Source: Trypanosoma brucei
Lineage: Eukaryota
Length of the DNA: 64,000 bases
Assembly: GCA_000002445.1 (NCBI GenBank)
Contig: CP000069.1
Span: forward strand, 96,001 to 160,000
Reading direction: 5' to 3'
The notes beneath the pieces were generated by a model, which was not told the DNA's origin, searched no databases, and worked only from the letters and a program-made list of their open reading frames with translations. Position 1 is the first letter of the stretch, and each line of letters starts with the position of its first letter. Below, piece after piece: positions 40,311 to 59,859 of the stretch. The position numbers were made by a program, and so were the translations under genes.

Positions 40311-41384
40311 CATGGAGGTAACCGTGATACTAGTAACTCAACGTAATTCAACTTTCAAACTACAGGACAAAAACGGCATAATAACAAAGTATTGGTACAA
40401 GATTAATAGACTGCATATGTATGTGTATATGTAAAAGCGTGGGAAAGGGAACTACTGTAGTGGATAACATTACACAAACCATAACAGCGAGAAAGTAGTT
40501 CAACACACATTCCCCCATACACCCACATATCATTCATGTATCCGATACAAAAACATAAAACATCACTAGGCATAAGGGTAAATGTGTAGATAGAACATTA
40601 CAGTATCATAAACTGGATTGCCATTAACAAAAACACAGCACACTAACAGTCACAGTTAACACTCAAACTGTAAATTTTAACTCACAACATCACGGCAGAC
40701 ATTGCTCAGTTTCATATTCCTTGACTGTCTAGGAGTAAAAGAGAGTGTGCGAGAGAATATGAGGAAAGTTTCAGCGACCATAGAGAAATATAAAGGAAGT
40801 TATACACATGTATCAGATATTGCAAATAGTTAGATGCAGCAAGGTGATTAAGAGATACCTTACAAGCCAGCATCTCCGAATGAAAAAAAAAGATTAGGGT
40901 AGACGCGAGGGATAAGCACAGGAGGTCACTTTTACTTCGCTATAGCCTCCGCTTCATGGGCATCACCTTATTATCAAACATATTTTTAAATGCAAGGACA
41001 CAGCTCCTAACAACACATTAGAGGTGGAGCGCCTCACATGACTACCGCCCACACGGACGGCAATATAAATTCAAATAAGATATTATTTAGAAGAAGTTGA
41101 GCATCAATGGCGGCGTGGGTGAACACATCCCTCACTACGTTAAACAGAAAGTTAACGACCCCCGAATATTGTAATCAAAAAATGGTGTGCCCATTTCAGA
41201 AGTAAAATGCATCCCGTACACAAGGATATTTAAAGCATCCAGCATATGAAGAAAATATTGCATGCGCAAAAAGTTGGGACGCAAAATGATAAAAATCGTT
41301 TATACAAGCCTGCTATGAAAACACAAAATGAATTATGTAAACATTATTATCCATTTACAACAACAAAACATACATACATCAATG

Positions 41385-44300
41385 TCATGAAGGATATTGG
41401 CTGGCACTCTCAACACTTTCCAGGTCAATCAAGTGCAGAGTGCAGCGTCGTCCCTCAACATAGGAAAAGTTTGAAGATGAAGCAACCGTTGCAACAGTAG
41501 CTCCTCCAGGTGAAAAGAGACTTCCACCCCTTTCCAATGATGTCACACTGCTGGAAGTATTCCTCGTTCCAAAATCCATAACACAACCCACCTTTGCAGC
41601 AATCCGACGGGTAACACAGCGACAACTGGCTTCATTCCAAGCATCCACCCCTGGGGGCTTCTTAACATGCCAACGCTCACAAAATGTTGCAAGCATCTTC
41701 TGTCGCTGGATAACTGGAAATGCGCCAATGAGAGCATCAATGCAACCAGCAACCTGTTGAGCGGTGGCAGTTAAACCACACTCATTAAAGCTCGACTCAC
41801 TAGCGCTACTACCTGTTCCAACATCTTCTTCATCCTCGATTTCACGTTCCAGCCGTAATGCAGCAAAGTTGCGGCCAGGCACGGCATTCAACTGGTACAT
41901 TTCCACAGGATCGGGCACACCACGTAGCGGCACATCACCAAGTGCAGTGACATCAATTTGCTCACGCTCCTCAGCTGAAAGTGACAGGTATGTTGAGCCT
42001 GTCATCAGCACCTGACCACCATTTGCTACACTCTCTGTCCTTGCTGCCATGTTTGGGGTCCGCCCATAGTAGTCATATCCCTTCGTCACTTCATCGTGTC
42101 GGATGTCGCACAACCCGGTGTGGATTCCAACACGTACACGCAGGCCATTCCACAAACGACTGTACACTTTAAGGTCCAACCGCGCAGTTGGCGGTGTGTA
42201 CTTCTCGTCCTCCTCCGCACGCTGCTGCTCAAACTGCTGGTAAGAATCATCAACTGCATTTGTTCCCCAGTCATGTTGCAAGAAACACAGCTGTAATTCC
42301 TGTGCGAGTTGGACGGCAGCGAAAGGACTCTTACTCGCTATCATGAACGAATCCCCAACAGTTTTGACTTCGTAGCACTTATACCTCCCAATCAGTGAAC
42401 GAATCAAATAGTGATGTGTCGCAACGGCATCGGGCATCAGCTCAGGGTGTGCAGCCCACAACGCAGTGCTGCTCTCAATGTCAGTAAATATTAGTGTCAC
42501 AGGGTCCGTTGGCTCCTTGGGCGCAAGATTGTTATCACGAGCATTCCGCAGGGTGATGCGTAGGAGCACACCAAGGGCAATAAAAGGTATCAAGCCGGCT
42601 ATACACCCGATACCTATGCCGGCTATCTGTGACCCTGTGAGACGACTCCCTCCTGAAATGATATACCCCATAGACGGTGTCATGCCGCGTTGCAATATGG
42701 GCACACTTGAATTCAGCACACGCGCCATCGACCATACAGAAATGTTTGTGGCTCCAAAGTTTGAGGCACACTCATTTGCCGAAACACTCGTACCAGAAAC
42801 ACATTCCACATCATTGAAGGGTCCAAATCGCATGTCATCCACTTTGATGTTGGACTCCGTGTAAATGCGGTCTGCCAGCAGCTCTGCATTCACTTTCTTC
42901 ATATTCGGGAGAATCACTTGAAGCAGCCGAGTGGTAACAAAACCTAAGAACGTTAGTGGATCCCAATGCGATTCATTCACAATGCGATGGAAACTCGCAA
43001 CCACATCTGATTTCGTGTCCTTCTCCGCCCAGTGTGGAAAACTCGTCGCGAATAGGAGCCGCTCTGAGCTAGCAATAGACTCTTTACTCGCATTAAACGC
43101 AGCTACAAACTCATCGTAGTACATTGCAAGGTCATTGAATGGAATGAATACACGTGCCCTGCGGTGTGCCTGAAGGTGCCGCGCAACTGCAGCAACGTCA
43201 GTGAGAGTGAGTCCAATAGTAAACACATCTCCATCACCCGAGAGATATGACGCTATCGGGTCACCATCACCAAGTGTCTTGCTGGAATCAAGCGGCACAC
43301 CAAACGTGTCCAATGACTTGTGCAGCAGGCTACTGATCTCCCCTGCTTGCTCACTACGTATGAGTGCATTTACTCCTCTGGAAGAAGTGTTGGAGAGATA
43401 CACAGCAAGCACATAAAGTTGCTGCGCAAGGACAGGCAGTAAGTGTATTACGTTTCTCCTAAACAATTTCATGCGGGGCCGAAGTGTCATAGGACTGATG
43501 AACACTAAATCTTTTCGATCCAGAAGCCCTCCAGGCATGATACCAAATACTGCAGATACATCCCTGTTATCCTGTACTTGCTCAAGGGATTGCGTCACAT
43601 TCTCTGAAGATACTGTTAGGGGATGGAAAAATATTCTATTGTCAATATTCTCCGCTTCCTTGCCATGAACCTCGGCACCAAGGAACCACTTCCTGCTCGC
43701 ACGTAATGCAATTTTATTATCTGCGAGAAGCAAAAAGAGGCCACTCAATGGCGCACCCACATGTACATTGGCACTCGAGCACTCTGATACACCCCACGTT
43801 AGATGTCCTTCCCACAAAGGCGCTGGTCGGAAGCCATCCATTATACTCTTCATATATACCATACTGCCACCTTGATTGCAATTACACATGGCACCCTGTA
43901 ATGCAACGGCCTCATTGCACTCACCACCAAAGTCACCAACCACAAGGTCATCAATCACGTAGCGACGCTGCTCGTACAGAGATTCCATGAATGACGTACG
44001 GTTCGTCAGCTGTGGAGCGTTATTCAGAGCCTGGAAGAGAACTTCTCCTGCAAGCCACCCATACACCATCATCTCACCTGCGTTGTCGTCCTCAAGGTAG
44101 TGATCGGGTTTCGCAAAGCCCTTCCAGTCACTTTTTGTATCCAGGTAGTTGTCCATGTCATGCTGGAAGTGCTGAATCAGTGAGAACCGAATGTCGCTGG
44201 CGAGCGGCACTGTTCCAGTTGTGATCAGCTGTCCAGGAGTAAATGTACGATTAGCTAACGCCAATGCCTCACGCCACATGTTGATAAGAGGACCCTGCTG

Positions 44301-45206
44301 TAGTGAAGTAGAAAGAAGATACGCATTGGCAGTGCGGTTGTCCTGTGCTACCTTCTTGATGAACCACGTGATGCTGCCATCCACCAGGGATGAAAACAGC
44401 AATATAGCCTGTGGGCGCGTAGCAACAAATTGTCTCCACCTGGTGTTCAAATCATCCTCAGAGATATTTTGATTCTCACTATCCTTCACAACGAACATTC
44501 CACACAACTCGCGACCCATCATTTCCAATATCTGCAGAGTAAACTCATACGGTCCCATACTGGCGGTGCTGCTCTTCACGTGCATCATACCTATTCGTGG
44601 GACACGGAGGTAAACAACAGCATAACGAATGAGGGCGAGGAGTTCAGCATTGGGTTCGACACTTATGAAATAAAGGTGAGGGTTCCAACCACGGACCTCA
44701 CTGGAGTGCGCAACGGGAGCGAGGGCAACAAGATCATTTTCCCTTAGTTTATTTCGGACATTTGCGACACGGTCACTACCCAGGGGCCCGAACACAACTA
44801 ATAACTTGTCTTTGCTTTGATCCATTCCCTCCTGAATCATGCCATCAACTGTCGCATTGGGTGATGAGGGACGGATGACAGATATTGTCGCATTAGAGCC
44901 CGTCTTCCAGCTGTGGGCACTCAGTGATGCGTCAAAGCCGGCATTCAGGGCGTTAATTTCACCTTCGGTATAAGCTGGATTATGCATCATGGATAGCACT
45001 TTTACCGTCACATTACCGTTTTCTGCGCACACAGGTGGCATCCACATGAGTAGCAAAGGCAACAAGTGTAGCAGTGATACAGCAGTAATGACAGGTGAGT
45101 GCTTGTACTTGCTGTAACGCCTTGCAGGGCTCCTTGCGGTAAGGTTCCGCCTGCAGTTTCCATGAGGGTACACACATCCTCTTCCACCACCTTCCTGCCA
45201 GCACAT
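41385..45206 (-). CDS. GRESAG4: Receptor-type adenylate cyclase, full length (copy 2, 1273 aa from first ATG)
   Basis: Same architecture as copy 1, with about 93-95% aa identity. Differences are clustered in the N-terminal part of the extracellular domain and in short patches of the catalytic domain (MTGSTYLS versus MTHEVYMS). The C-terminal tail is ...LHLIDLESVESASQYPS. The codon before the hydrophobic leader is GTG (Val), not ATG. Confidence 0.9.
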   Translation of the reverse strand: MCWQEGGGRGCVYPHGNCRRNLTARSPARRYSKYKHSPVITAVSLLHLLPLLLMWMPPVCAENGNVTVKVLSMMHNPAYTEGEINALNAGFDASLSAHSWKTGSNATISVIRPSSPNATVDGMIQEGMDQSKDKLLVVFGPLGSDRVANVRNKLRENDLVALAPVAHSSEVRGWNPHLYFISVEPNAELLALIRYAVVYLRVPRIGMMHVKSSTASMGPYEFTLQILEMMGRELCGMFVVKDSENQNISEDDLNTRWRQFVATRPQAILLFSSLVDGSITWFIKKVAQDNRTANAYLLSTSLQQGPLINMWREALALANRTFTPGQLITTGTVPLASDIRFSLIQHFQHDMDNYLDTKSDWKGFAKPDHYLEDDNAGEMMVYGWLAGEVLFQALNNAPQLTNRTSFMESLYEQRRYVIDDLVVGDFGGECNEAVALQGAMCNCNQGGSMVYMKSIMDGFRPAPLWEGHLTWGVSECSSANVHVGAPLSGLFLLLADNKIALRASRKWFLGAEVHGKEAENIDNRIFFHPLTVSSENVTQSLEQVQDNRDVSAVFGIMPGGLLDRKDLVFISPMTLRPRMKLFRRNVIHLLPVLAQQLYVLAVYLSNTSSRGVNALIRSEQAGEISSLLHKSLDTFGVPLDSSKTLGDGDPIASYLSGDGDVFTIGLTLTDVAAVARHLQAHRRARVFIPFNDLAMYYDEFVAAFNASKESIASSERLLFATSFPHWAEKDTKSDVVASFHRIVNESHWDPLTFLGFVTTRLLQVILPNMKKVNAELLADRIYTESNIKVDDMRFGPFNDVECVSGTSVSANECASNFGATNISVWSMARVLNSSVPILQRGMTPSMGYIISGGSRLTGSQIAGIGIGCIAGLIPFIALGVLLRITLRNARDNNLAPKEPTDPVTLIFTDIESSTALWAAHPELMPDAVATHHYLIRSLIGRYKCYEVKTVGDSFMIASKSPFAAVQLAQELQLCFLQHDWGTNAVDDSYQQFEQQRAEEDEKYTPPTARLDLKVYSRLWNGLRVRVGIHTGLCDIRHDEVTKGYDYYGRTPNMAARTESVANGGQVLMTGSTYLSLSAEEREQIDVTALGDVPLRGVPDPVEMYQLNAVPGRNFAALRLEREIEDEEDVGTGSSASESSFNECGLTATAQQVAGCIDALIGAFPVIQRQKMLATFCERWHVKKPPGVDAWNEASCRCVTRRIAAKVGCVMDFGTRNTSSSVTSLERGGSLFSPGGATVATVASSSNFSYVEGRRCTLHLIDLESVESASQYPS

Positions 45207-45249
45207 ATTTTCGGGAATGTGTGACACTTTTCGTGTGTGAAATCTTATG

Positions 45250-45300
45250 TCCTAAGGAAGAATATCAAAAGAGGGAAAATAGAAATCAGTAAGATTACAC
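45250..45300 (-). promoter_or_regulatory. Polypyrimidine tract plus AG (minus strand), candidate SL acceptor for copy 2
   Basis: Same sequence as the element upstream of copy 1 (reverse complement of aagaatatcaaaagagggaaaatagaaatcagtaag), about 45-90 nt upstream of the ATG at 45206. Confidence 0.5.
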
Positions 45301-46440
45301 TTCCAGACAGTTGGATACTATAACAAGTTCCCGACAAAACCAAAACAATGCTTAAAAAGCAATGAAGGCACGTCAAGGTAGCGAGAGGCGACTCGTTTAT
45401 GATGTCACTGTAAATTGCGAGCAAATGATAGAAAGGGACAACCGACACGCTGGTAGCTAATGGTGTCACACAAACAAACACGTATACGTATTTCATGTGT
45501 GTCGTTGTTTTCCTTGCTACTGACATTTCATTACGAAATATGGATCTGTCTTCGATGTGGCTTTCGTTTGAGTTGAGGGCAGAACGATAGTCGTAAGTGC
45601 CCTGGTGGTGTATTCACTACATTCATGCATTCAGATACCTATTATCCCCTTTGTACCTACCATGGTGATGGGGTTTGAGACTCTCCGTTGCAAGCACATA
45701 TTTCATGGGAGTAAAGAATTTCTTGCTTACCTAATGGACATCTCTGTCACATTGCTAAAAACATAAGGCGCAACTCGTCATATCGTGGCGGCAGAGCCAT
45801 GGAATGATCAGGCGTTTGCAGGGTAGATGAGTCATAACTGTCTGTGGCGGAGGCATCCTACAGCGATCTGCAGGTACGAAATGTGTTGGATCGTACCCGA
45901 TTCCGTGGGTCTAACAGTGCCGCAGCTGTTTGTGTGAGATGGAGCCTGGTTCCATTCTTTGGGTGCCATTTTACGTTAGCAGTGTAAAGCAGCAGAATAT
46001 CTGTACTGGCATACGGCATCCCCACAACTCATACGTCGGTCAACTAACTTCACGAAACATCCTGACCAATGCGGCAAAACCGTATAAGTAACCGTCGCCG
46101 TCTCCCAAACCCACTTCTGCAGAGCAGGCTAACTTACAGTCTGAGACGACGGGATCCGTCCATTATATCCTCGCTGACTACCACGGTGTTGGCACCCAGA
46201 GAGCGCAACCGTAACACTTATTTTCGCTACACGCAATCTCCTTACGTCTCTCTTCACCTGCAACAACTGATCCATCGTTGCGAAAGCGCAGCAGAACGAG
46301 GCGCATGCGGTGGTCGCAGCGTATGTTCATCGGTGCAGATTACCGGAAAAGGGAAAGCGCTGCCTTCACATGCATAACGTACCTCACTGGATGCTGATCA
46401 GCTGTGTCGTCTGTTCGCACATGCCTGTGACACACAAGCA

Positions 46441-46456
46441 AAAAAAAAAAAAAAAC
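46441..46456. repeat. Homopolymer A15/16
   Basis: caagcaaaaaaaaaaaaaaaacacagc in the unique spacer between the inverted array arms. Confidence 0.9.
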
Positions 46457-49400
46457 ACAGCAACAACGCACATACGCATAGGTTGTGGTTCTCTGCATGT
46501 TTCGCATATAATTCTCAACAGCAGATGAATACAACGTTGTCACCAAGAACCGTCTTTTTTTCGTTTTTTCTGTCGCGAGAAGGGAAGCTCATCATCACGT
46601 GTCCGCTATCCATTACACATAGCATGGTTTAAATCGCCACTGGAGTGCTGTGACGAGTCCCGTTCTTGTGCGGCAAAAGTGTGATAACAATGCTGTACAC
46701 TGTGACTCTTGGCATGGCTAGTGAATTGGCCAATATCGTATCCCTAGTGCAACATCAACCCTCCCACATCGCCAAATATAAAATCGGTCGTCGTGTGCAG
46801 CGACATACACGCTGTTGAATTCGTAAACATGTGTCAGACTACCAAGGCTGACACAAAACATTTTACAGGAAACCTGTGGGAAGCAAAGTCTCCAACCTAG
46901 AAGCATCCCGCAGAGTATATGAGCCTTGCTGTGGCTTCAAACAGAAGAAACCCAACAATTGTGAAGGAGCTGCAACGCTACACTCGCGAGGTATCACTCA
47001 ATATGGCAACTCCGTCACATCACTCATCTCATTCTTTTTCAGCTCATTTCTTTGCTGCTGTCACTCTCAGCGCTTTGGAATATCAGCAGTAGATCTCTGA
47101 AACCCCTAAGGCGCTTGTGGCGAAACACTAACCTCGCTATCCAGTAATGGTTAAAAGGGGGGTTTGTAAGCAAGATCACAAGTCCATATAACCCCAGAAA
47201 GAAAAAAAATGATACCATAAAGATATTTCCACGAAAAAAAAAATTTGGTAATATTGGTAGCGTTGAATGGCATGAAGAACACTGGAAGTAGAAACGTGTC
47301 ATTCCCTCCTGGGGTAAATACAAAACCGGTAAGTCTCTTCCTTTCATCAGTAAGGAATAAGGAGCACTGTTCTAGCTGTGGCAACGGGAAGAAACAAAAA
47401 TGTCAGGTAAATAGACTCATGTATCGATGCAGCATGGGCTATCAAAAATCGAAGCGTGGAACTGCTCTATCCGAGAAAACATAGTGATACAAATCATCAG
47501 ATACAACACCAGAAAATAGAGAGGACAAAAAACGGTATGATGTAAGACTCAACATTAGCGTGTACAATGCGGTGACGGTGTACAAGCAACAACCATTAAT
47601 CTGAGACTAACCCGGGCTTCCCTCCGAAAAGGAAAAAGAACCGAAACCTAAAGTAACGAAAAATGCTCTATTTGACAGTTAAAAGCAGTATCCACGCAGT
47701 GTATGGCATCAAAAAAAAAACAATAAAACTTTAGAACAATCCAAATGAAATATCAGGGGGGGAAACGGGAACACCATCATATCGACCAAGCACATATCCT
47801 ACTGTGGTTCAGTATCAAAAGGAGGTTAATTTCCCAACCGGATATAAGAGTAAACGGAAACAATATGAGGGGCAAGAAAGTGCCTTCAGACCTGTCAGCC
47901 CAATACCACAGTTCAATCGATAGGCGACCGCAAATATCACAAAATTCAAAGCGCACCACGACACACAGGCACCTTAAACAATTATAACTAAGAAGTGATA
48001 CCTGATACCCCCTTTATTTCCATCGTCAGAGAGAGTGAATGAGCATAGGAAGGTCGTGTGATGTAAACGTATGCATGATGTAACGCCATGTTTGAAATAC
48101 TATCAATACTCCAGAGGGATCATTACGGAATGGAGTTACGGGACAAGCAGCCAAACGATGGTACTGCACGCAAGAGCAGTTATCACACACACGGAGAGAG
48201 ATGTAGGCGCTCATGCATAAGCACACTATACAGAAGCCAAAGGCCGAAACACACACAAATCCTATTTGACCATTGTGTTTTACTGTACCTTTTAAAAAGT
48301 TTATCGACCTTGTGGTGGTGAGCTGAGGGTATCGGAATAAGGTGCTCCTTTACCTTTTAGTGGAAAAACAAATTTCGTATCAATAGTGGCCGCATACACG
48401 TTTGGGGACAATATCTCTTTACAGTAACTGCTTCCACAATGTTAGCCTTTATTGTCGGCAACAAAACATTCAATGTATAAGCGCAACAACAAAATAATGT
48501 GTCCCTATGACACTATTAGTTCCTTCTTAAGATATCCCTTGTTCGGTATAAGTCATTTAAAATAGTGCCTACACATTGAGACAAACTGCAGCTACGGTCA
48601 CCAGCCCCCGAGTCACATCTGAAACCATCGGTTGCAAATATTTGTGCTCAGCGAGGAAAGGCCAGTGCCACAGAACCTACAGCACAGTCGTACCTTGTCT
48701 CAAACGCACACACTCAGCATATTCACTTTTCAATTGGTTTCTTCTCTTTATCCTCATATTTTAAGAGCAACAATAACAACAAAGAAGCACACTTGCGTTA
48801 AAACCATAGAGGAATTTGGCAGTGCAGAAAGCATTGTTTCACTAAGTGTAGAAACCACAGGAACTCGAAGTATCGGAATTAAACATTACCACACAGTCCT
48901 GTTAACCACATAGCATCTCCAACAATAGTCCTCTCACTGTTAGTTAGCCGGCATGTCCTGCATTAGTTCCTATCCGCTTTTTCCTTTCTTTTTCCATTTT
49001 TGGTCTCTCTCCCAGTGGTGCATCATACATTAAAATTATGTGCGCTGTTGAGTGTATGGTACTTACCTTCAGTCAAAGAAAAAAAAAAAGCGATATGACT
49101 TCCTAAGTCAGTAAGTGAGATGCGTATCTGTTTTGTGCTTCTTCCTTTCTTCACTTTTATACATGCCGGTAGCTGCTTGTCGCGAAGAAAAAGAGAGGCA
49201 GTAATTTATTGGGATGTCTCTCGGAGTAAAAAAATAATTATAGGCATATGAAGGAGGTAATTAAATTGGGAATATTGCCAACGAGGTAGCAAAGAAAAAC
49301 GAGCCTCCAACAACAAAACGGCAGGTGCCATCGAGCGACACAAATGGCATCTCAGTAACATCCCGTGAGTGACATTGGGTATTGCCCATCTGTTACCTAT

Positions 49401-52400
49401 CCAATCCACGAAAGGTGATTACTCACTAACTCTCCGTAACTTGTACTCAATTCCCTTACGAGGAGAGAGCAGTGGAGTATCACCTCATGTTACAGGTAGT
49501 GTCACGGGAAATTTTTTATGGGCATCGCAAGGCATCGCAATTCGTAGCCTCACCAACATTCTGGTACGGATACCTATATTTGATGAGATTATCTTGAGTA
49601 GTTACTTTCCTCAAAATGGGTGTACAACACGCTGCCTCCATGAGTAACACAATTACTAGCGCTAGATCTGCCGCCAGTAAATCACTGCCAAGTTCTAAAT
49701 TAATATCATTCTTGCTTCATTCACAATCATGGCAGGGACTGGATGTAAATTTTACCATGATGTTTTGTAGCGCTTAGTGCCTCGTAGCGAAAATATGGCT
49801 CCAATTGCACACACAGACAGTACCTTTATACCAGCACTAAACGTCTTTACGTACATCGTCCGTCCCTAACCAAATGCTCAAAAAATAATTTGAACCAAGG
49901 CTGGCCGATCAGAAGTTTTTAGACAAACTGGGTCATTCACTTTCTAATCATTATTTACAACCTTATTACATTGTCCGTTGGTTTTTGCACCCTTCGGCAG
50001 CACCCCCAAAGTGAGTTAGAGCGTATCGATGGCGCAAGCAGATAGTTGTTACCGTCATTGTCATATTTTCTCTCTTTTGTCTTGATCGAGACAAACGAGT
50101 ATTGTTTACGTTCCGCAAATACCCTGCAGCACACGACACGAATAGCCGATCCGCTACCGCACCAAAGGTGATGAGCAATGTTTTATAGTTACGATGGGAA
50201 GCCATCTTTTTGACATACTGGGAAAATAATAGACTGGCATCTTATGAGCCGGATAAAAATGGCTCGCTAGCTAAGACAGCACTCCACGTTGAACGCATAC
50301 ATCCCTCACGCGGGTGTGTGTGCCGATGGCGAGCTCCACATTGCTACGAAAATAACGGTATGGTCACGAATATTCCTTTATCATGTCCAGAGCAGAGGAA
50401 AGTTGACACTCAGAGCTATTCGAGGCGGGCACCAAACAAAATCCAGCGTCCATGCCTAACCTCCCCTAAAACAGCGCAAATCAACCACAGTAACCGCACA
50501 CAGTACCACCGGTACATTCAATGGAAGGAGCGCTCTTTGATATTACCTCCGCGCACTCGCCCCAGCCGACGCTGCCAGTGAGCGGCCGTACCATCGATGC
50601 CGTGGCGTTCCGCCTTCACATGGACACTCAACGAAGGGGAAATTTTGCACACTCTTCGGTGCTCACACCCGCACGCCGGAGGCGGACAAGCCGGAAAGAA
50701 AAACACTTGAGAAAGCCGAGGCCGACGGAACATTCCAGTTGGTAAGGCCGATTCTGAGGGGGCACCAACTCGCGCGCCTCCCGACAAAATGCATGGAGCG
50801 ACCTTCCCTTACCAAACAGAAGCAGCGCGATCACGAAGACAAAATGAAAAAGCAATTCCGCAACCCAGGCATAAGGTCCAAAGAAACTTCCCCGCATTTA
50901 CTACAATGACAGACCCAAAAGGCACTACGCAAAGAATGTGGGGCGGAAAATACCGTGAGGGGCAGATCATCGCTTCACGGGCTGTGGGCGCATTTTTCAC
51001 GTAGGTTCTTGAAACTGGAAGACTTAGATCTGATCGCGGAACTGTGAAACCTTTTCCCGACCGAACGGACGACTCCAAACAGAGAGAGAGAGAGCAAAGG
51101 ACAACTTTTAACTGAAGCTGCAATGTCTAAAGTTGCAATCGGACTAAGTCGAGGCACCGGAGATAGAGCTGAGAGAGGTTCGAATAATTGTGGCAGGATG
51201 GTGACCGTGGCGCCGAGGCACAAGAGCCAAATGCTGGTAAAAGGGTGTTAAGCGAGGGAAACTTTGGTGAGGCTGTGCTACACGTGCCGCAGGGTCGCAT
51301 CGCCGTTCATACGAGATGGTGTCACTTAACTCTGTGGCTGCGTGAATTGTGAAACAGCAATGTTACATGCACATGCGCCTATCAAGAATACGCAGCAGTG
51401 GTTTACATGTGGTGGGTCGATGCGTTAAACTCCCTGAGTATTCTCCTCATTTTATACAAGCGAAACTGAATGAACCCGCGTAGGGGATACCATGCCGACC
51501 TCTGATGAAGGGGCGCCTGAGTTTGATGGTAAATCGTCTGATCGGGGCCACGCTACGGGGAAACGAACTGAGCGCACTTGTTACAACCCCAAAGGTTGAA
51601 TATAAATCCTGATATTGAGTATAGATGACCCTTTCTTTAAACGGTCGTAACATCCAATGAAAGGATTACCCACGCTCGTAGTCGATTTTGTCTTTCAAAA
51701 AATGAAATGTAAACTTCAAAGGGAAGTTCGCCCTCATTGTCAGGCTCTGCCAGGGATCAGCCTGTGGTTCAAAACATTTGACCATGACCTTCTGGTGTGT
51801 GACAATTCGTGCTCCGTCTACTGAAACTTTGTGAACTGAGGGGGTGGAATTTTTTCTTGGTGCGTTTCAGGAACAATATGTATTGCATTGACTTTGGTTA
51901 GTGCATGCTTATTCTTCGGAACATGAATTAGTATTATTGTTATGTTTTGTTGAAAGATGACAAATGGATGAAGATATTCTAGTGCCGTAATTGCTTGTTA
52001 AATTTCAGTGTGAGTATGATGTAAATGAAATATGGGCACAATTTCCCCTCTGAGACATTGTAGAATACCACAGGGATGGTAGTCACATCGAAGTCATTGC
52101 TGTTCGCCTTAAGTGCATGTACAGCATTAGGTACCGCCAGCTTACTAGTCTGTGTAACAGGGGGCTCTCATTGTCGTCCTTGAACTTATGCATGCTAGTG
52201 TTGAAGGAACTTTGTGACATAACGTCTTTGTATGTGTGCGATAACATTAATTGAAGATAGCACGGATACCCGAGATGTCAATGTCGATACGAAACAAGAA
52301 ATGCGAGATCAACTTTCTTTACTGTGAATGACAGGTTGCCACTATGGGGAACACAGCGCAAGTGGTAAGCGAACCATTGAGTCTGTGTATGTGAAATGAT

Positions 52401-54895
52401 AGACACTTTAACAGCAGTCGCAGTTTTCTTATATTGGAGTGAGTGAACGACATAGTGTGATAAGGAAGTAATCGACATGAAAAATATAAGAAGGAAACAG
52501 TCCTGACCTGTTTGCAGCAGTACTTGCTTCTGTTAACGCAGCTGTAGGTTTTTGATGGGAATGGTTTGTGTAAAAAACCTTTCTGTTTCTATGTTCATTG
52601 TCTATCCTCTACAATGTTGAATATTGCTATCTTCTTTTAGTTATTAGGTTCTAAGGTGGTAGTGAGTGGTAATATATGGATACACTGAATTGCTGGTACC
52701 TACTGGTTCGGTGCAGTATATACAGTCATACGTTTGTCACTAGTCCACCATCACGGTTGATACATTTTGCACAATAAAACAAAGAAACACATTGGCGTTG
52801 ATATGTTTGCTTGTTTATTCAAACTTTGCGAATATATTTAAGGCTTTGTATGTGCTTATCCCTTCCATATTTATCAGCTGCTATTGTTTTCCCCATCTGA
52901 CCATGAGTCCGTCGGATATATCACTAATTACTGTGAGTTGGCGCAATCAGTATTTCTCAGGGTTAGTTCCCTCACATCTGGCACCGTCTGTATGACACAT
53001 ATTTGTTTATCCGTGCGTTCACCCTCTTGACCATAATTTACACATGAAAAGAGTCCATTGAAGTACTCTTCGTGAGCCCTGTATTGATTTCTGTGCTGTC
53101 AGTGTATTTATGAAGTGTGATGACTTCATTGACAGTTCATTTTCTCTGCACTGTAATGAATGTGTGAGTCTTCTCTGATGTAACTCCGTTATAAGAAGCA
53201 ATTGCTCTCAAGAACATTACCTGACAATCTCACTCCATGCAGTGACTATTGTGTATCATTGCTGAATTTGGTTTAATTTCGTTCTCTCGTTAGAAATAAA
53301 CTCACAGGGAGGGAGAAGATAAATTAAAAGGTAAATTACACAGCTAAAATGGCGTTTCACTGGAACGATATGATTCACTAGCATTGAATATTATGTTTGG
53401 AAATAGGAAGGCAATCCATACGATAAGGGAGTATCCCTACACAAACACATTTCGCTGCAGCACACGGGGCTTCAAGCTATATCTTTTTCTTCTTGTGGTC
53501 AATCCACGCAATTGTGTGCAGCAGATGTGATCTTTCACCTCCAACACCGGAAGCGAATGCACATGATCTGTATGATTATGCGGTATCTAACTCATTTAAG
53601 GTTGGAGAAAATGGGAGACACTGCTACCTGTGTCGAACAGAATAGCAGGTGCCAGCACTATGGACAGCTCATGAAACTTTAAAGATAAAGAGACTTCAAT
53701 AGCCTACAATATATTGTGGTATACAAGATGCCAACGCTAATGCTTCACATTGTGTGCATGCCTGTACTCCACTGCAAGTGTGCGATGTGTCCAAGTGTTC
53801 TTGTCCCTCTGCTCAAGGGAACTGACGTTAAACATGTGAATAACCACTGATTATGTTTATTTCTTAGCGGTCATTGAGCCGATATTGTTATCTGTAGTTG
53901 TGTTCCATCCCTTCTTTGCCATTGTTGTTACCTTCTAAACAATAGCGCTATTTGTGTCACGGTAATGATAACAGCAATTTCGTAATTGCTGATTTAGTTT
54001 GTTTCTACTCATATACTATTCGATGTTAAGATAACATTGCGAGTAATGTGTTAGTGTCAAACACAGAAGCTACCAACCTATTCAAATATTCAAACGCAGA
54101 TACGTGTGTCCATCTGAAATAGTGTTTGTTCGTCATCTAAATGGAGCGCACACTCATTTGTTTTCGTTTATTTTTATTATTTCTTCGTTCATATCGTGTA
54201 CTATAGCGTAAGAGTGTGCACAAATGTGTCACCATTAGTTTGCTGACATTTCGCCCGTAATCCCTTCTTATGGCATAGGTGTCACATGTTTTATTCGCGT
54301 CTTTCACATTGTGAGCCCTTTTTAATTCACAAACGATGAATTGCACATCGGTGGAAAAGGCTGGTAAAGCGTGGTATATGTACAAATATTGTCCCATATT
54401 ACACGTAATAACAAATGATAAGTGAGCGCATGTCTTGTGACAATCATGTGGTGGCTGCTGCAGATGGGGAGCCAACAGCAGAGAATCAAATGAAAGCAAG
54501 TGTCCTCTACAAAATGGAGGACAGATGAAAAGGGTTATGTGGTTAAGGGGATTCAACAAAATAAACTAAAAGGGTCAACTATACATGAGCAAATGCAGCC
54601 ACACAAACACACATGGAGCAAGCGATAACTACATCAATGCCGGATCCATATTTCGTAATGAAATGTCAGTAGCAAAGAAAACAACGACACACATGAAATA
54701 CATATACGTGTTTGTGTGACACCATTACCTACCAGCGTGTCGGTTGTCCCTTTCTATCATTTGCTCGCAATTTACAGTGACATCATAAACGAGTCGCCTC
54801 TTGCTACCTTGACGTGCCTTCATTGCTTTTTAAGCATTGTTTTGGTTTTGTCGGGAACTTGTTATAGTATCCAACTGTCTGGAAGTGTAATCTTA

Positions 54896-54934
54896 CTGAT
54901 TTCTATTTTACCTCTTTTGATATTCTTCCTTAGG
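54896..54934 (+). promoter_or_regulatory. Polypyrimidine tract plus AG, candidate SL acceptor for copy 3
   Basis: ttctattttacctcttttgatattcttccttAGgacataag, about 45 nt upstream of the first ATG at 54979. Confidence 0.5.
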
Positions 54935-54978
54935 ACATAAGATTTCACACACGAAAAGTGTCACACATTACCGAAAAT

Positions 54979-57900
54979 ATGAGCTGGCAGGAAGGTGGTG
55001 GAAGAGGATGTGTGTACCCTCATGGAAACTGCAGGCGGAACCTTACCGCAAGGAGCCCTGCAAGGCGTTACAGCAAGTACAAGCACTCACCTGTCATTAC
55101 TGCTGTATCACTGCTACACTTGTTGCCTTTGCTACTCATGTGGATGCCACCTGTGTGCGCGGAAGCGAGTACTGTGACGGTAAATGTGCTATCCATGATG
55201 CATAATCCAGCTTATACCGAAGGTGAAATTAACGCCATTAATGCCGGCTTTGACGCATCACTGAGTGCCCACAGCCGGAAGACGGGCTCTAATGCGACAA
55301 TATCTGTCATCCGTCACCCATCACCCAATGCGACAGTTGAGGAGATATTTCAGCATGGAATGAAACAAAGTGAAGGGAAGTTATTAGTTGTATTCGGGCC
55401 CCTGGGTAGTGACCGTGTCGCAAATGTCCGTGATAAACTGAAGGAACATGATCTTGTTGCCCTCGCTCCCGTTGCGCACTCCAGTGAGGTCCGTGGTTGG
55501 AACCCTCACCTCTATTTCATAAGTGTCGAACCCAATGCTGAACTCCTCGCCCTCATTCGTTATGCTGTTGTTTACCTCCGTGTCCCACGAATAGGTATGA
55601 TGCACGTGAAGAGCAGCACCGCCAGTATGGGACCGTATGAGTTTACTGTGCAGATATTGGAAATGATGGGTCGCGAGCTGTGTGGAATGTTCGTTGTGAA
55701 GGATAGTGAGAATCAAAATATCTCTGAGGATGATTTGAACGTCAGGTGGAGACAATTTGTTGCTACGCGCCCACAGGCTATATTGCTGTTTTCATCCCTG
55801 GGTAATACAGCAAAGTGGTTCATCAAGAAGGTAGCACAGGACAACCGCACTGCCAATGCGTATCTTCTTTCTACTTCACTACAGCAAAATTTTTTGATCA
55901 AGATGTGGCGTGAGGCATTGGCGTTAGCTAATCGTACATTCACTCCTGGACAGCTAATCACAACTGGAACAGTGCCGCTCGCCAGCGACATTCGGTTCTC
56001 ACTGATTCAGCACTTCCAGCATGACATGGACATCTACCTCAGGACAAACAATGACTGGAAGGGCTTTGCGAAACCCGATCACTACCTTGAGGACGACGGT
56101 TTAGGTGAGATGATGGTGTATGGGTGGCTTGCGGGAGAAGTTCTCTTCGAAGCTCTGAATAACGCTCCACAGCTGACGAACCGTAAATCATTCAGGGAAT
56201 CTCTGTACAAGCAGCGTCGCTACGTGATTGATGACCTTGTGGTTGGTGACTTTGGTGGTGAGTGCAATGAGGCCGTTGCATTACAGGGTGCCATGTGTGA
56301 ATGCAATCAAGGTGGCAGTATGGTATATATGAAGAGTATAATGGATGGCTTCCGACCAGCGCCTTTGTGGGAAGGACATCTAACGTGGGGTGTATCAGAG
56401 TGCTCGAGTGCCAATGTACATGTGGGTGCGCCATTGAGTGGCCTCTTTTTGCTTCTCGCAGATAATGAAATTGCATTACGTGCGAGCAGGAAGTGGTTTC
56501 TTGGTGCCGAGGTTCATGGCAAGGAAGCGGAGAATATTGACAATAGAATATTTTTCCATCCCCTAACAGTATCTTCAGAGAATGTGACGCAATCCCTTGA
56601 GCAAGTACAGGACAACAGGGATGTATCTGCAGTATTTGGTATCATGCCTGGAGGGCTTCTGGATCGAAAAGATTTAGTGTTCATCAGTCCTATGACACTT
56701 CGACCCCGCATGAAATTGTTTAGGAGAAACGTAATACACTTACTGCCTGTCCTTGCGCAGCAACTTTATGTGCTTGCTGTGTATCTCTCCAACACTTCTT
56801 CCAGAGGAGTAAATGCACTCATACGTAGTGAGCAAGCAGGGGAGATCAGTAGCCTGCTGTACAAGTCATTGGACACGTTTGGTGTGCCGCTTGATTCCAG
56901 CAAGACACTTGGTGATGGTGACCCGATATCGTCATATCTCTCGGGTGATGGAGATGTGTTTACTATTGGACTCACTCTCACTGACGTTGCTGCAGTTGCG
57001 CGGCACCTTCAGGCACACCGCAGGGCACGTGTATTCATTCCATTCAATGACCTTGCAATGTACTACGATGAGTTTGTAGCTGCGTTTAATGCGAGTAAAG
57101 AGTCTATTGCTAGCTCAGAGCGGCTCCTATTCGCGACGAGTTTTCCACACTGGGCGGAGAAGGACACGAAATCAGATGTGGTTGCGAGTTTCCATCGCAT
57201 TGTGAATGAATCGCATTGGGATCCACTAACGTTCTTAGGTTTTGTTACCACTCGGCTGCTTCAAGTGATTCTCCCGAATATGAAGAAAGTGAATGCAGAG
57301 CTGCTGGCAGACCGCATTTACACGGAGTCCAACATCAAAGTGGATGACATGCGATTTGGACCCTTCAATGATGTGGAATGTGTTTCTGGTACGAGTGTTT
57401 CGGCAAATGAGTGTGCCTCAAACTTTGGAGCCACAAACATTTCTGTATGGTCGATGGCGCGTGTGCTGAATTCAAGTGTGCCCATATTGCAACGCGGCAT
57501 GACACCGTCTATGGGGTTTTCCATTGCAGGAGGGAGTCGTCTCACAGGGTCACAGATAGCCGGCATAGGTATCGGGTGTATAGCCGGCTTGATACCTTTT
57601 ATTGCCCTTGGTGTGCTCCTACGCATCACCCTGCGGAATGCTCGTGATAACAATCTTGCGCCCAAGGAGCCAACGGACCCTGTGACACTAATATTTACTG
57701 ACATTGAGAGCAGCACTGCGTTGTGGGCTGCACACCCTGAGCTGATGCCCGATGCCGTTGCGACACATCACTATTTGATTCGTTCACTGATTGCGAGGTA
57801 TAAGTGCTACGAAGTCAAAACTGTAGGGGATTCGTTCATGATAGCGAGTAAGAGTCCTTTCGCTGCCGTCCAACTCGCACAGGAATTACAGCTGTGTTTC

Positions 57901-58797
57901 TTGCAACATGACTGGGGAACAAATGCAGTTGATGATTCTTACCAGCAGTTTGAGCAGCAGCGTGCGGAGGAGGACGAGAAGTACACACCGCCAACTGCGC
58001 GGTTGGACCTTAAAGTGTACAGTCGTTTGTGGAATGGCCTGCGTGTACGTGTTGGAATCCACACCGGGTTGTGCGATATCCGACACGATGAAGTGACGAA
58101 GGGATATGACTACTATGGGCGGACTCCAAACATGGCAGCAAGGACAGAGAGTGTAGCAAATGGTGGTCAGGTGCTGATAACAGGCTCAACATACCTGTCA
58201 CTGTCAGCTGAGGAGCGTGAGCAAATTGATGTCACTGCACTTGGTGGTGTGCCGCTACGTGGTGTGCCCGATCCTGTGGAAATGTACCAGTTGAATGCCG
58301 TGCCTGGCCGCAACTTTGCTGCATTACGGCTGGAACGTGAAATCGAGGATGAAGAAGATGTTGGAACAGGTAGTAGCGCTAGTGAGTCGAGCTTTAATGA
58401 GTGTGGTTTAACTGCCACCGCCCAACAGGTTGCTGGTTGCATTGATGCTCTCATTGGCGCATTTCCAGTTATCCAGCGACAGAAGATGCTTGCAACATTT
58501 TGTGAGCGTTGGCATGTTAAGAAGCCCCCAGGGGTGGATGCTTGGAATGAAGCCAGTTGTCGCTGTGTTACCCGTCGGATTGCTGCAAAGGTGGGCCGTG
58601 TTATGGATTTTGGAACGAGGAGCTCCTCCAGCAGTGTGACATCATTGGAAAGGGGTGGAAGTCTCTTTTCACCTGGAGGAGCTACTGTTGCAACGGTTGC
58701 TTCATCTTCAAACTTTTCCTATGTTGAGGGGCGACGCTGCACTCTGCACTTGATTGACCTGGAAAGTGTTGAGAGTGCCAGCCAATATCCTTCATGA
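54979..58797 (+). CDS. GRESAG4: Receptor-type adenylate cyclase, full length (copy 3, 1272 aa from first ATG)
   Basis: The track ORF starts at a GTG at 54958, and the first ATG is at 54979 (MSWQEGGG...). Same domain layout as copies 1 and 2. It is a mosaic: some segments match copy 1 (LGNTAKWFIKKV) and others match copy 2 (MMHNPAYTEGEIN, ITGSTYLS, C-terminal SASQYPS). The catalytic motifs are intact. Confidence 0.9.
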   Translation: MSWQEGGGRGCVYPHGNCRRNLTARSPARRYSKYKHSPVITAVSLLHLLPLLLMWMPPVCAEASTVTVNVLSMMHNPAYTEGEINAINAGFDASLSAHSRKTGSNATISVIRHPSPNATVEEIFQHGMKQSEGKLLVVFGPLGSDRVANVRDKLKEHDLVALAPVAHSSEVRGWNPHLYFISVEPNAELLALIRYAVVYLRVPRIGMMHVKSSTASMGPYEFTVQILEMMGRELCGMFVVKDSENQNISEDDLNVRWRQFVATRPQAILLFSSLGNTAKWFIKKVAQDNRTANAYLLSTSLQQNFLIKMWREALALANRTFTPGQLITTGTVPLASDIRFSLIQHFQHDMDIYLRTNNDWKGFAKPDHYLEDDGLGEMMVYGWLAGEVLFEALNNAPQLTNRKSFRESLYKQRRYVIDDLVVGDFGGECNEAVALQGAMCECNQGGSMVYMKSIMDGFRPAPLWEGHLTWGVSECSSANVHVGAPLSGLFLLLADNEIALRASRKWFLGAEVHGKEAENIDNRIFFHPLTVSSENVTQSLEQVQDNRDVSAVFGIMPGGLLDRKDLVFISPMTLRPRMKLFRRNVIHLLPVLAQQLYVLAVYLSNTSSRGVNALIRSEQAGEISSLLYKSLDTFGVPLDSSKTLGDGDPISSYLSGDGDVFTIGLTLTDVAAVARHLQAHRRARVFIPFNDLAMYYDEFVAAFNASKESIASSERLLFATSFPHWAEKDTKSDVVASFHRIVNESHWDPLTFLGFVTTRLLQVILPNMKKVNAELLADRIYTESNIKVDDMRFGPFNDVECVSGTSVSANECASNFGATNISVWSMARVLNSSVPILQRGMTPSMGFSIAGGSRLTGSQIAGIGIGCIAGLIPFIALGVLLRITLRNARDNNLAPKEPTDPVTLIFTDIESSTALWAAHPELMPDAVATHHYLIRSLIARYKCYEVKTVGDSFMIASKSPFAAVQLAQELQLCFLQHDWGTNAVDDSYQQFEQQRAEEDEKYTPPTARLDLKVYSRLWNGLRVRVGIHTGLCDIRHDEVTKGYDYYGRTPNMAARTESVANGGQVLITGSTYLSLSAEEREQIDVTALGGVPLRGVPDPVEMYQLNAVPGRNFAALRLEREIEDEEDVGTGSSASESSFNECGLTATAQQVAGCIDALIGAFPVIQRQKMLATFCERWHVKKPPGVDAWNEASCRCVTRRIAAKVGRVMDFGTRSSSSSVTSLERGGSLFSPGGATVATVASSSNFSYVEGRRCTLHLIDLESVESASQYPS

Positions 58798-59859
58798 CAT
58801 TGATGTATGTTTTGTTGTTGTAAATGGATAATAATGTTTATATAATTTAAATTATTTTTAGATTAGTCTTGTATAAGGCATTTTTAACTCTTTGCTCCCC
58901 AACTTTTTGCGCATGCAATATTTCCCTCATATGTTGGGTGTTTAAATATTTTTATGCACAGGGATGCATTTTATTTCTGAAATGGGCACACCATTTTTTG
59001 ATTGTAATATATGAAAGTCGTTAATTTTCTGTTTAACGTAGTGAGGGATGTGTGCATCCACGCCACCATTAATGCTTAAATTTTCGTAAATAATATCTTA
59101 TTTAAATTTAAATTGCCGTCCGTGTGGGCCGTTGTCAAGTGAGGCGCTCCACCTCTAATGTGTTGTTAGGAGCTGTGTCCCTGCATTTAAAAATGTGTTT
59201 GATAATAAGGTGATGCCCATGAAGCGGAGGCTATAGCGAAGTAAAAGTGACCTCCTGTGCTTATCCCTCGCGTCTACCCTAATCTTTTTTTTTCATTCGG
59301 AGATGCTGGCTTGTAAGAGGTATCTCTTAATCACCTTGCTGCATGTAACTATTTGCAATATCTGATACATGTGTATAACTTCCTTTATATTTCTCTATGG
59401 TTGCTGAAACTTTCCTCATATTCTCTCGCACACTCTCTTTTACTCCTAGACAGTCAAGGAATATGAAACTGAGCAATGTCTGCCGTGATGTTGTGAGTTA
59501 AAATTTACAGTTTGAGTGTTAACTGTGACTGTTAGTGTGCTGTGTTTTTGTTAATGGCAATCCAGTTTATGATACTGTAATGTTCTATCTACACATTTAC
59601 CCTTATGCCTAGTGATGTTATATTTTTTTGTATCGGATACATGAATGATATGTGGGTGTATGGGGGAATGTGTGTTGAACTACTTTCTCGCTGTTATGGT
59701 TTGTGTAATGTTATCCACTACAGTAGTTCCCTTTCCCACGCTCTTACATATACATATGCAGTCTATTAATCTTGTACCAATACTTTGTTATTATGCCCTT
59801 TTTGTCCTGTAGTTTGAAAGTTGAATTACGTTGAGTTACTAGTATCACGGTTACCTCCA

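What the first reader, a model, noticed from the sequence alone, without database searches (positions are those of the whole stretch)
45540..54640. 9.1 kb unique, ORF-poor spacer at the centre of the palindrome: candidate divergent strand-switch / transcription start region
No ORF longer than 140 codons lies between the inverted arms, and none has recognisable similarity. Base composition is mixed, with an A15 run at 46441 and several short low-complexity patches. The first gene on either side is a cyclase transcribed away from the spacer. In trypanosomatids RNA polymerase II initiates in exactly such divergent strand-switch regions without a defined promoter motif. This spacer is therefore the most likely transcription start zone for both arrays. 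It could also hide a small RNA gene. I could not find a convincing tRNA A/B-box pair.
Basis: inference. Interest (0 to 1): 0.5.

Follow-up and report, generated by a model that had tools for sequence, protein, structure and literature searches.

The report
Known trypanosome divergent transcription start region
The 9 kb gene-free gap between two mirror-image adenylate-cyclase gene arrays is the strand-switch region between Trypanosoma brucei genes Tb927.6.300 and Tb927.6.310, which a 2010 transcriptome study already listed as a two-way RNA polymerase II start zone, so it is real but ordinary.

Summary
A unique 9.05 kb segment (45571-54618) lies between inverted arms that are 96-98% identical. 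Its longest ORF (140 aa) is what random sequence of the same composition gives. It has no tRNA, no Rfam family and no Pfam domain in any of the six frames.

The window is T. brucei brucei TREU927 chromosome 6, positions 96,001-160,000. The flanking cyclases are 100% identical to AAZ11598 and AAZ11599, which I assign to Tb927.6.300 and Tb927.6.310. Kolev et al. 2010 (Table S14) list Tb927.6.300->.270 (-) and Tb927.6.310->.340 (+) as 'Divergent' Pol II units.

Their Table S7 places five low-abundance novel transcripts inside the spacer. Two run leftward (45374-48752) and three run rightward (52641-54791). They leave a 3.9 kb transcript-free core (48753-52640). The GT/AC strand asymmetry flips inside that core at about 51.0 kb, next to a GC-richer island.

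An independent T. equiperdum assembly is collinear across the spacer at 98%, so the arrangement is not an assembly artefact.

The spacer is not silent; its outer 60% is transcribed into short RNAs that look non-coding. Interest is low.

The parts
45571..54618 (.). Unique, ORF-free spacer: the divergent strand-switch region between Tb927.6.300 and Tb927.6.310
   Evidence: arm ends, uniqueness; ORFs match random expectation; no tRNA, Rfam or Pfam; Kolev Table S14 'Divergent'.
48753..52640 (.). Transcript-free core: the inferred two-way Pol II initiation zone
   Evidence: This is the gap between the 5' ends of Tb6.NT.20 (minus) and Tb6.NT.21 (plus) after mapping with an offset of 96,000. It contains the keto-skew change point at 50,937 and the cumulative minimum at 51,158. 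That it is the initiation zone is an inference.
50301..51600 (.). GC-richer island (GC 0.52, CpG observed/expected 1.0) at the strand-asymmetry switch
   Evidence: It ranks in the 98th percentile of 1-kb GC windows in the window. It has no function-specific evidence.
45374..47163 (-). Tb6.NT.19, a 1789-nt novel transcript at 2.06 RNAs per cell (Kolev 2010 Table S7)
   Evidence: The longest sense-strand ATG ORF is 62 aa. Its 5' end is not preceded by AG in this sequence.
47298..48752 (-). Tb6.NT.20, a 1454-nt novel transcript at 1.37 RNAs per cell
   Evidence: a pyrimidine-rich tract and AG lie directly before the 5' end. The longest sense ORF is 62 aa.
52641..53199 (+). Tb6.NT.21, a 558-nt novel transcript at 1.03 RNAs per cell
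   Evidence: a pyrimidine-rich tract and AG lie directly before the 5' end. The longest sense ORF is 33 aa.
53310..54083 (+). Tb6.NT.22, a 773-nt novel transcript at 0.78 RNAs per cell
   Evidence: The longest sense ORF is 45 aa.
54202..54791 (+). Tb6.NT.23, a 589-nt novel transcript at 1.19 RNAs per cell; its 3' end lies 188 nt before the cyclase ATG
   Evidence: The longest sense ORF is 44 aa.
45207..45570 (-). Conserved upstream cassette of cyclase Tb927.6.300, holding a polypyrimidine tract at 45267-45285 and forming the inner end of the left arm
   Evidence: The same ~340 nt lie upstream of the T. b. gambiense cyclase next to the HpHbR gene (the Tb927.6.430 orthologue by inference) at 91%.
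54619..54978 (+). Conserved upstream cassette of cyclase Tb927.6.310, holding a polypyrimidine tract at 54900-54918 and forming the inner end of the right arm
41388..45206 (-). GRESAG4 receptor adenylate cyclase AAZ11598/XP_845157 (assigned to Tb927.6.300), first gene of the leftward unit
   Evidence: 100% identity over 1273 aa. The catalytic domain matches PDB 1FX2 at 1.4e-135.
54979..58794 (+). GRESAG4 receptor adenylate cyclase AAZ11599/XP_845158 (assigned to Tb927.6.310), first gene of the rightward unit
   Evidence: 100% identity over 1272 aa.
46440..46455 (+). A16 run (T16 on the minus, sense strand) inside Tb6.NT.19

Best explanation
The spacer is the divergent strand-switch region between two very short, mirror-image Pol II polycistronic units of T. 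brucei chromosome 6: Tb927.6.300->.270 running leftward and Tb927.6.310->.340 running rightward. Each unit holds two full-length GRESAG4 cyclases and two truncated copies. RNA polymerase II starts in both directions within the central part of the spacer, at most 48.75-52.64 kb, with the switch near 51.0 kb. Each primary transcript first crosses 2-3.4 kb of unique non-coding DNA. That DNA is processed into low-abundance, polyadenylated and mostly trans-spliced short RNAs (Tb6.NT.20 and .19 leftward; Tb6.NT.21, .22 and .23 rightward). The transcript then reaches the conserved ~340-nt upstream cassette and splice-acceptor tract of the first cyclase. Shown here: the geometry, the uniqueness, the lack of coding or structured-RNA genes, the locus identity, the strand-asymmetry flip, and conservation in a second assembly. 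Taken from the literature: the 'Divergent' classification, the 5'-triphosphate read enrichment and the five transcripts. Inferred: the exact position of initiation within the core, and that initiation depends on GT-rich sense-strand sequence and H2A.Z/H4K10ac chromatin as at other T. brucei start regions.
For: Locus identity: the three cyclases in the window are 100% identical to the consecutively numbered TREU927 proteins AAZ11597, AAZ11598 and AAZ11599 on a 1,618,915-bp contig. No protein is therefore annotated between the two genes that flank the spacer. Pfam confirms the truncated cyclase copies that complete the four-gene units. Kolev 2010 Table S6 groups Tb927.6.170.280.300.310 and .330 as one near-identical GRESAG4 set. 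Table S14 lists .300->.270 (-) and .310->.340 (+) as 'Divergent'. The paper says 5'-triphosphate reads were enriched at every divergent unit in that table.

Coordinate mapping: an offset of exactly 96,000 puts AG directly before 6 of 9 novel-transcript 5' ends. It also places the 3' ends of NT.18, NT.19 and NT.23 in the same repeated sequence 170-200 nt before three cyclase ATGs. With that offset NT.19 and NT.20 (minus) and NT.21-23 (plus) diverge from a 3.9 kb gap.

Strand asymmetry: the GT fraction of the plus strand is 0.455 left and 0.530 right of a change point at 50,937, which 0 of 500 block permutations reach. GT-rich 10-mers switch strand at about 51.0 kb. This matches the sense-strand GT bias reported for T. 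brucei start regions.

Non-coding status and independent support: there is no coding or structured-RNA signal. T. equiperdum is collinear at 98% over 17.5 kb, includes the start of the left arm, and has no gene called in the 10 kb upstream.
Against: I could not see any chromatin or nascent-RNA track for this exact locus; the support is a table entry plus a general statement in the paper. The assignment of gene IDs to accessions is inferred from pattern, not read from an annotation file. Three of the nine mapped transcript 5' ends (NT.19, NT.22, NT.23) are not preceded by AG at the listed coordinate. Table S7 boundaries may therefore be approximate, or the sequence version may differ slightly. 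GT-rich 10-mers are no denser in the spacer than in the flanking genes, so they show direction but do not mark a promoter. Divergence from T. equiperdum is a flat 1.2% and says nothing about constraint.
Confidence: 0.9

Rival explanations
1. The spacer hides a protein-coding gene, or a decayed pseudogene or retroelement (ingi, RIME or DIRE relic), so it belongs to one of the polycistrons rather than being a promoter region.
For: [quoted passage not shown] Short ORFs of up to 62 aa exist on the sense strands.
Against: The longest ORF equals the random expectation. No Pfam family, including reverse transcriptase or endonuclease, hits at E<=1 in six X-masked frames. The accession numbers of the flanking genes are consecutive. 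No gene is called in the T. equiperdum orthologous 10 kb. The five transcripts are absent from Tables S8-S10, which cover homology to T. cruzi or L. major and mass-spectrometry peptides. The spacer has no similarity to the rest of the window.
Confidence: 0.04
2. The spacer carries a small structured RNA gene (tRNA, snRNA or snoRNA) whose Pol III or Pol II promoter organises the boundary, as at the 'next to tRNA' units in T. brucei.
For: Some T. brucei units start next to tRNA, snRNA or rRNA genes. There is a weak snoU83D-like match at 49885-49957 (21.6 bits, E 2.6).
Against: ARAGORN finds no tRNA in the whole window. No Rfam family reaches its gathering score, and the two weak matches are far below theirs (21.6 against 55, and 18.4 against 56). 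Kolev lists the units as 'Divergent', not 'next to tRNA'.
Confidence: 0.03
3. The palindrome and its spacer are an assembly artefact caused by near-identical cyclase repeats.
For: The arms are 96-98% identical over more than 4 kb, which is the kind of repeat that can mislead assemblers.
Against: An independent T. brucei equiperdum assembly (GCA_003543875.1, CM010677.1) is collinear with window 44971-62503 at 98%. Its first 600 nt also match the right arm in inverted orientation, which means the left arm is present there. The spacer is unique sequence joined to both arms. Published transcripts cross both junctions: the NT.19 and NT.23 3' ends lie inside the arms.
Confidence: 0.02
4. Besides, or instead of, starting transcription, the spacer acts as an ORC1/CDC6 binding site and possibly an early replication origin. 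This is not exclusive of the best explanation.
For: Tiengwe 2012 reports that 62 of 88 divergent strand-switch regions bind ORC1/CDC6, and that 19 of 42 early origins centre on such regions.
Against: I found no locus-specific data. About 80% of ORC1/CDC6 sites are not active origins. The spacer contains no AT-rich tandem array or other origin-like or centromere-like repeat.
Confidence: 0.3

Closest known systems
T. brucei divergent strand-switch regions / Pol II transcription start regions (Siegel 2009; Kolev 2010, PMC2936537; Wedel 2017, PMC5579346)
   Same: It has head-to-head polycistronic units, a multi-kb gene-free gap, low-abundance processed transcripts near the start zone and GT-rich bias on each sense strand. 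This very locus appears in Kolev's Table S14.
   Different: Nothing essential differs. The two units are unusually short (four genes each) and are mirror images of each other, so one start region serves two near-identical cyclase arrays.
Neighbouring divergent region Tb927.6.390/.400 (HpHbR unit) on the same chromosome (PMC11796357)
   Same: It is also a two-way Pol II promoter region driving two short (about five-gene) units, lies one convergent junction away, and includes a GRESAG4 gene (L002).
   Different: Mono-allelic, reversible epigenetic silencing of initiation was shown there by run-on and Pol II ChIP. Nothing of the kind is known or tested for the .300/.310 region.
Leishmania major chromosome 1 strand-switch region (Martinez-Calvillo 2003, as cited)
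   Same: Pol II initiates in both directions between divergent gene clusters, with no canonical promoter.
   Different: From my own knowledge, the Leishmania region is under 1 kb with initiation in a ~100-bp C-tract area. This spacer is 9 kb with a 3.9 kb candidate core and no long homopolymer G or C tract.
Mammalian dispersed / CpG-island bidirectional promoters
   Same: Initiation is broad and two-way with a sense bias, an analogy drawn by Kolev 2010. The core holds a GC-richer island with CpG observed/expected of 1.0.
   Different: Trypanosomes have no known CpG methylation logic. Here the island is only a compositional observation.

Membership tests
T. brucei divergent strand-switch region / Pol II transcription start region | Flanked by two gene clusters on opposite strands that read away from each other | tested here: met
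   The cyclase at 41388-45206 is on the minus strand and the cyclase at 54979-58794 is on the plus strand. Further truncated and full copies lie on the same strands.
T. brucei divergent strand-switch region / Pol II transcription start region | No protein-coding gene between the diverging clusters | tested here: met
   The longest ORF (140 aa) equals the random expectation. There is no Pfam hit in six frames. The flanking accessions are consecutive. No gene is called in T. equiperdum.
T. brucei divergent strand-switch region / Pol II transcription start region | Primary (5'-triphosphate) transcripts arising in both directions | tested here: met
   This was checked by literature look-up only. 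Kolev 2010 Table S14 lists Tb927.6.300->.270 (-) and Tb927.6.310->.340 (+) as 'Divergent'. The text states enrichment at every divergent unit in that table. I did not see the raw track.
T. brucei divergent strand-switch region / Pol II transcription start region | Enrichment of H2A.Z, H2B.V, H4K10ac and BDF3 over roughly 10 kb (twin peaks) | not testable with these tools
   No ChIP-seq coordinates for this locus were found in the supplements I searched. Siegel 2009 is not held in the library.
T. brucei divergent strand-switch region / Pol II transcription start region | G/T excess on the sense strand of each half, flipping between the two start regions | tested here: met
   The change point is at 50,937 and 0 of 500 block permutations reach it. 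GT-rich 10-mers switch strand at about 51.0 kb. The criterion comes from Wedel 2017.
T. brucei divergent strand-switch region / Pol II transcription start region | Outward-pointing processed transcripts on each side of a central gap | tested here: met
   Tb6.NT.19 and .20 (minus) and Tb6.NT.21-23 (plus) were mapped with an offset of 96,000.
Unit boundary 'next to tRNA/snRNA/rRNA' | A Pol III or Pol I gene at the boundary | tested here: not met
   No tRNA was found, and no Rfam family reached its gathering score.
T. brucei centromeric strand-switch region | AT-rich tandem repeat array flanked by retroelements | tested here: not met
   TRF finds only runs of at most 30 nt. There are no direct-repeat families and no reverse-transcriptase or endonuclease Pfam hit.

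The most novel reading that the evidence does not exclude
The 1.3 kb GC-richer island at 50.3-51.6 kb, which sits exactly where the strand asymmetry flips, could be a discrete two-way core promoter or chromatin-nucleating element. Because it serves only two tiny mirror-image cyclase units, it could be switched on or off epigenetically as a block, as shown for the neighbouring HpHbR region. That would give the parasite transcription-level control over a set of surface adenylate cyclases. The five spacer RNAs could take part as promoter-associated non-coding RNAs.
Probability: 0.1. Interest if true: 0.4.

Novelty: already known. Interest (0 to 1): 0.1.

Why it matters
It matters little beyond confirming the annotation. 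This is one of roughly 70-90 divergent start regions in a well-studied genome, and it was catalogued in 2010. Two points are mildly useful. First, a single start region feeds two near-identical four-gene GRESAG4 units, which makes a compact natural test case for how one region drives both directions. Second, its neighbour on the same chromosome is the only T. brucei Pol II promoter region shown to be silenced allele by allele. Asking whether the cyclase region behaves the same way is therefore a reasonable experiment.

Tried and rejected
- Exact-sequence look-ups of the TREU927 cyclases in the contig index failed. The locus was identified through the protein search and cluster listing instead.
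- I first guessed a chromosome offset of about 30 kb from transcript lengths (note 2). A scan of all offsets for AG before the transcript 5' ends rejected it. The same scan, together with the round value and the sequence context, gave 96,000.
- The T. b. gambiense hit P0004 turned out to be the cyclase next to the HpHbR gene (the Tb927.6.430 orthologue by inference), not this locus. It shares only the cyclase and its ~340-nt upstream cassette with the window.
- I looked for a motif shared between the spacer core and the other GC-rich skew minimum at 8-11 kb. The best match was 13 nt at 26.3 bits, within the range of shuffled controls, whose maximum was 28.2.
- Divergence from T. equiperdum is a flat 1.2% across the spacer, against 2.7% in the cyclase coding sequence. 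It gives no information about constraint.
- I searched for start-region coordinates in the supplements of Wedel 2017 and Staneva 2021 and found nothing. Siegel 2009 and Cordon-Obras 2022 are not held in the library, so I could not scan for the published sequence-specific promoter motif.
- I did not run homology searches on the spacer ORFs. Their lengths match random expectation, and none of the longest lies on the sense strand of a mapped transcript.
Full report
**Observation**

The window holds a large inverted duplication. Its innermost arms are 41372-45476 and 54709-58810, 96-98% complementary. After a 4-nt offset the pairing continues at 89% to 45570/54619. The strictly unique spacer is therefore 45571-54618 (9048 nt, GC 0.435).

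- blastn at word size 9 finds no further similarity of the spacer to itself on either strand, or to the other 55 kb of the window.
- The longest ORF is 140 aa (54137-54559, minus strand, TTG start).
- Order-2 Markov simulations of the spacer give a longest ORF of 143 +/- 25 aa, and 51% of them reach 140. The ORF content is exactly that of non-coding DNA.
- The homopolymer is A16 at 46440-46455, not A15 at 46441.
- ARAGORN finds no tRNA anywhere in the window.
- Rfam gives nothing at gathering scores. In E-value mode it gives only two chance-level matches, E 2.6 and 4.2.
- All six frames, with stops masked, give no Pfam family at E<=1. This also argues against decayed retroelements.

**Where this is**

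The plus-strand cyclase (54979-58794) is 100% identical to AAZ11599/XP_845158 of T. brucei brucei TREU927, on a contig of 1,618,915 bp. The two minus-strand cyclases (41388-45206 and 30016-33819) are 100% identical to AAZ11598 and AAZ11597. The accession numbers are consecutive, so the GenBank record annotates no protein between the two genes that flank the spacer. The shorter ORFs between the full-length genes are truncated cyclase copies.

Kolev et al. 2010 (PMC2936537) Table S6 groups Tb927.6.170.280.300.310 and .330 as one near-identical GRESAG4 set. Their Table S14 lists two 'Divergent' units on chromosome 6: Tb927.6.300->.270 (-) and Tb927.6.310->.340 (+). This matches the window exactly:

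| Strand | Window positions | Gene (inferred ID) |
|---|---|---|
| minus | 41-45 kb | .300 |
| minus | 36.7-38.5 kb | .290 |
| minus | 30-33.8 kb | .280 |
| minus | 25.4-27.1 kb | .270 |
| plus | 55-58.8 kb | .310 |
| plus | 61.7-63.1 kb | .320 |

The gene-ID assignment is my inference from this pattern. I did not read it from an annotation file.

**Exact coordinates and what is transcribed**

I scanned every possible offset between window and chromosome coordinates for AG dinucleotides directly before the 5' ends of Kolev's novel transcripts (Table S7). The best round value was exactly 96,000, with 6 of 9 sites matching.

On its own that count is not decisive across a million offsets. Three further facts make it secure.

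- The value is a round number.
- The six sites have pyrimidine-rich tracts before the AG.
- The 3' ends of Tb6.NT.18.19 and .23 all fall within about 35 nt of each other in the same repeated sequence, 170-200 nt before the ATG of three different cyclases.

The window is therefore Tb927_06:96,001-160,000. Five catalogued transcripts lie in the spacer:

| Transcript | Strand | Window coordinates (5'->3') | Length (nt) | RNAs per cell |
|---|---|---|---|---|
| Tb6.NT.19 | minus | 47163->45374 | 1789 | 2.06 |
| Tb6.NT.20 | minus | 48752->47298 | 1454 | 1.37 |
| Tb6.NT.21 | plus | 52641->53199 | 558 | 1.03 |
| Tb6.NT.22 | plus | 53310->54083 | 773 | 0.78 |
| Tb6.NT.23 | plus | 54202->54791 | 589 | 1.19 |

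Their longest sense-strand ATG ORFs are 33-62 aa. None of them appears in the paper's tables of conserved or peptide-supported novel transcripts.

The transcripts point outward and leave a 3.9 kb gap, 48753-52640. Three of the nine mapped 5' ends (NT.19, NT.22, NT.23) are not preceded by AG at the listed base. The table boundaries may therefore be approximate.

**Sequence signals of direction**

The cumulative GC skew of the window has a minimum at about 50-51 kb. Inside the spacer the G+T fraction of the plus strand changes from 0.455 to 0.530 at a change point of 50,937. The cumulative minimum is at 51,158, and 0 of 500 block permutations reach the statistic. GT-rich 10-mers are mostly on the minus strand to the left of about 51.0 kb and mostly on the plus strand to the right.

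Wedel et al. 2017 (PMC5579346) report just such a G/T excess on the coding strand of T. brucei start regions. They also show that synthetic GT-rich elements drive directional transcription and H2A.Z deposition. The density of GT-rich 10-mers here is no higher than in the flanking genes. The signal therefore gives direction, not a promoter call.

The switch coincides with a GC-richer island at 50.3-51.6 kb (GC 0.52, CpG observed/expected 1.0). It ranks in the 98th percentile of 1-kb GC windows in the window.

**Is it an artefact?**

An independent assembly of T. brucei equiperdum (CM010677.1) is collinear with window 44971-62503 at 98% over 17.5 kb. Its first 600 nt also match the right arm in inverted orientation, so the start of the left arm is present there too. 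No gene is called in the 10 kb upstream of its cyclase.

Substitution divergence is a flat 1.2% across the spacer, against 2.7% in the cyclase coding sequence. That is too little to reveal constraint.

The inner ends of the arms coincide with the end of a ~340-nt upstream cassette. The same cassette precedes the T. b. gambiense cyclase that lies next to the HpHbR gene, which I infer to be the Tb927.6.430 orthologue (91%). Each arm's cassette carries the polypyrimidine tract about 60 nt before the ATG.

**Mechanism**

Pol II most likely initiates in both directions within the 3.9 kb core, with the divide near 51.0 kb. Each primary transcript then crosses unique non-coding DNA that is cut into short polyadenylated, mostly trans-spliced RNAs. 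It then reaches the first cyclase.

- Shown here: geometry, uniqueness, non-coding status, locus identity, asymmetry flip, and conservation in a second assembly.
- From the literature: the 'Divergent' classification, and the statement that 5'-triphosphate reads were enriched at every divergent unit of Table S14.
- Inferred: the position of initiation inside the core and its dependence on H2A.Z/H4K10ac chromatin. I could not check the chromatin marks, because the supplements I searched hold no coordinates for this locus and Siegel 2009 is not held.
- Possible and untested: a second role as an ORC1/CDC6 site. Tiengwe 2012 found that 62 of 88 divergent regions bind ORC1/CDC6.

**Comparison and verdict**

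This is a member of the known class of T. brucei divergent strand-switch start regions, and this exact locus is already in a published list. It meets every defining feature that could be tested here. The chromatin marks remain unchecked.

It is not a tRNA-adjacent boundary and not a centromeric switch region. The only unusual aspects are that the two units are very short and are mirror images. Also, the next divergent region on the chromosome (Tb927.6.390/.400, the HpHbR unit) is the one for which mono-allelic epigenetic silencing of initiation has been shown (PMC11796357).

- The start zone is at most the central 3.9 kb, not the whole 9.1 kb.
- The rest of the spacer is transcribed.
- There is no small RNA gene.

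Novelty is 'already known', and interest is low.

Noticed in passing
window 8700-10600: This is the GC-richest 1-kb stretch of the whole window (GC up to 0.58). It lies at the first cumulative GC-skew minimum, just upstream of Kolev transcripts Tb6.NT.15-17 (plus strand, 10485-15745) and a nucleoside-transporter ORF (15877-17298, PF01733). It has no Pfam hit in six frames and no motif shared with the spacer core above shuffled controls. It may be a second divergent switch that is absent from Kolev's Table S14, which starts at Tb927.6.270.
   Followed up: partly
window 50301-51600: A GC-richer island (GC 0.52, CpG observed/expected 1.0, against 0.40-0.44 and 0.68-0.84 in the rest of the spacer) sits exactly at the strand-asymmetry change point. 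Together with the 8.7-10.6 kb island, the two GC-richest non-coding stretches of the window both sit at skew minima.
   Followed up: partly
window 24794-45570 and 54619-64000: Each arm is a tandem of a full-length cyclase and a truncated cyclase copy (the 574/470-aa and 410+164-aa ORFs carry the Guanylate_cyc domain and part of the periplasmic-binding-like domain). Identity between arms is 96-99% and falls to 89% over the last 100 nt before the unique spacer, which looks like the edge of a gene-conversion tract.
   Followed up: partly
L001 21032-21254 (T. equiperdum CM010677.1): A 223-nt copy of spacer 54404-54626 (98.7%) lies at the far end of the right-hand array in T. equiperdum. The equivalent position in the TREU927 window lacks it.
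   Followed up: no
window 34020-35873, minus strand: Kolev transcript Tb6.NT.18 (1853 nt) lies directly upstream of the internal cyclase assigned to Tb927.6.280. It ends in the same repeated sequence as NT.19 and NT.23, so every full-length cyclase here is preceded by a non-coding transcript of its own, even though the upstream sequences are unrelated.
   Followed up: no
protein hits P0003, P0028, P0034: Schistosoma mansoni database entries (Smp_112590, XP_018644084, Smp_186530) cluster with T. brucei GRESAG4. P0003 is 84% identical to the query, and P0028 and P0034 sit in the 90%-identity clusters, all on short contigs. This is almost certainly trypanosome contamination in that assembly.
   Followed up: no
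L002 (T. b. gambiense FN554969.1:14217-37954): The gambiense chromosome 6 record seems to begin only about 14 kb before the HpHbR unit (peptidase M20, LRR protein, cyclase, HpHbR, procyclin). The palindromic cyclase region studied here may be missing from, or placed elsewhere in, that assembly.
   Followed up: no
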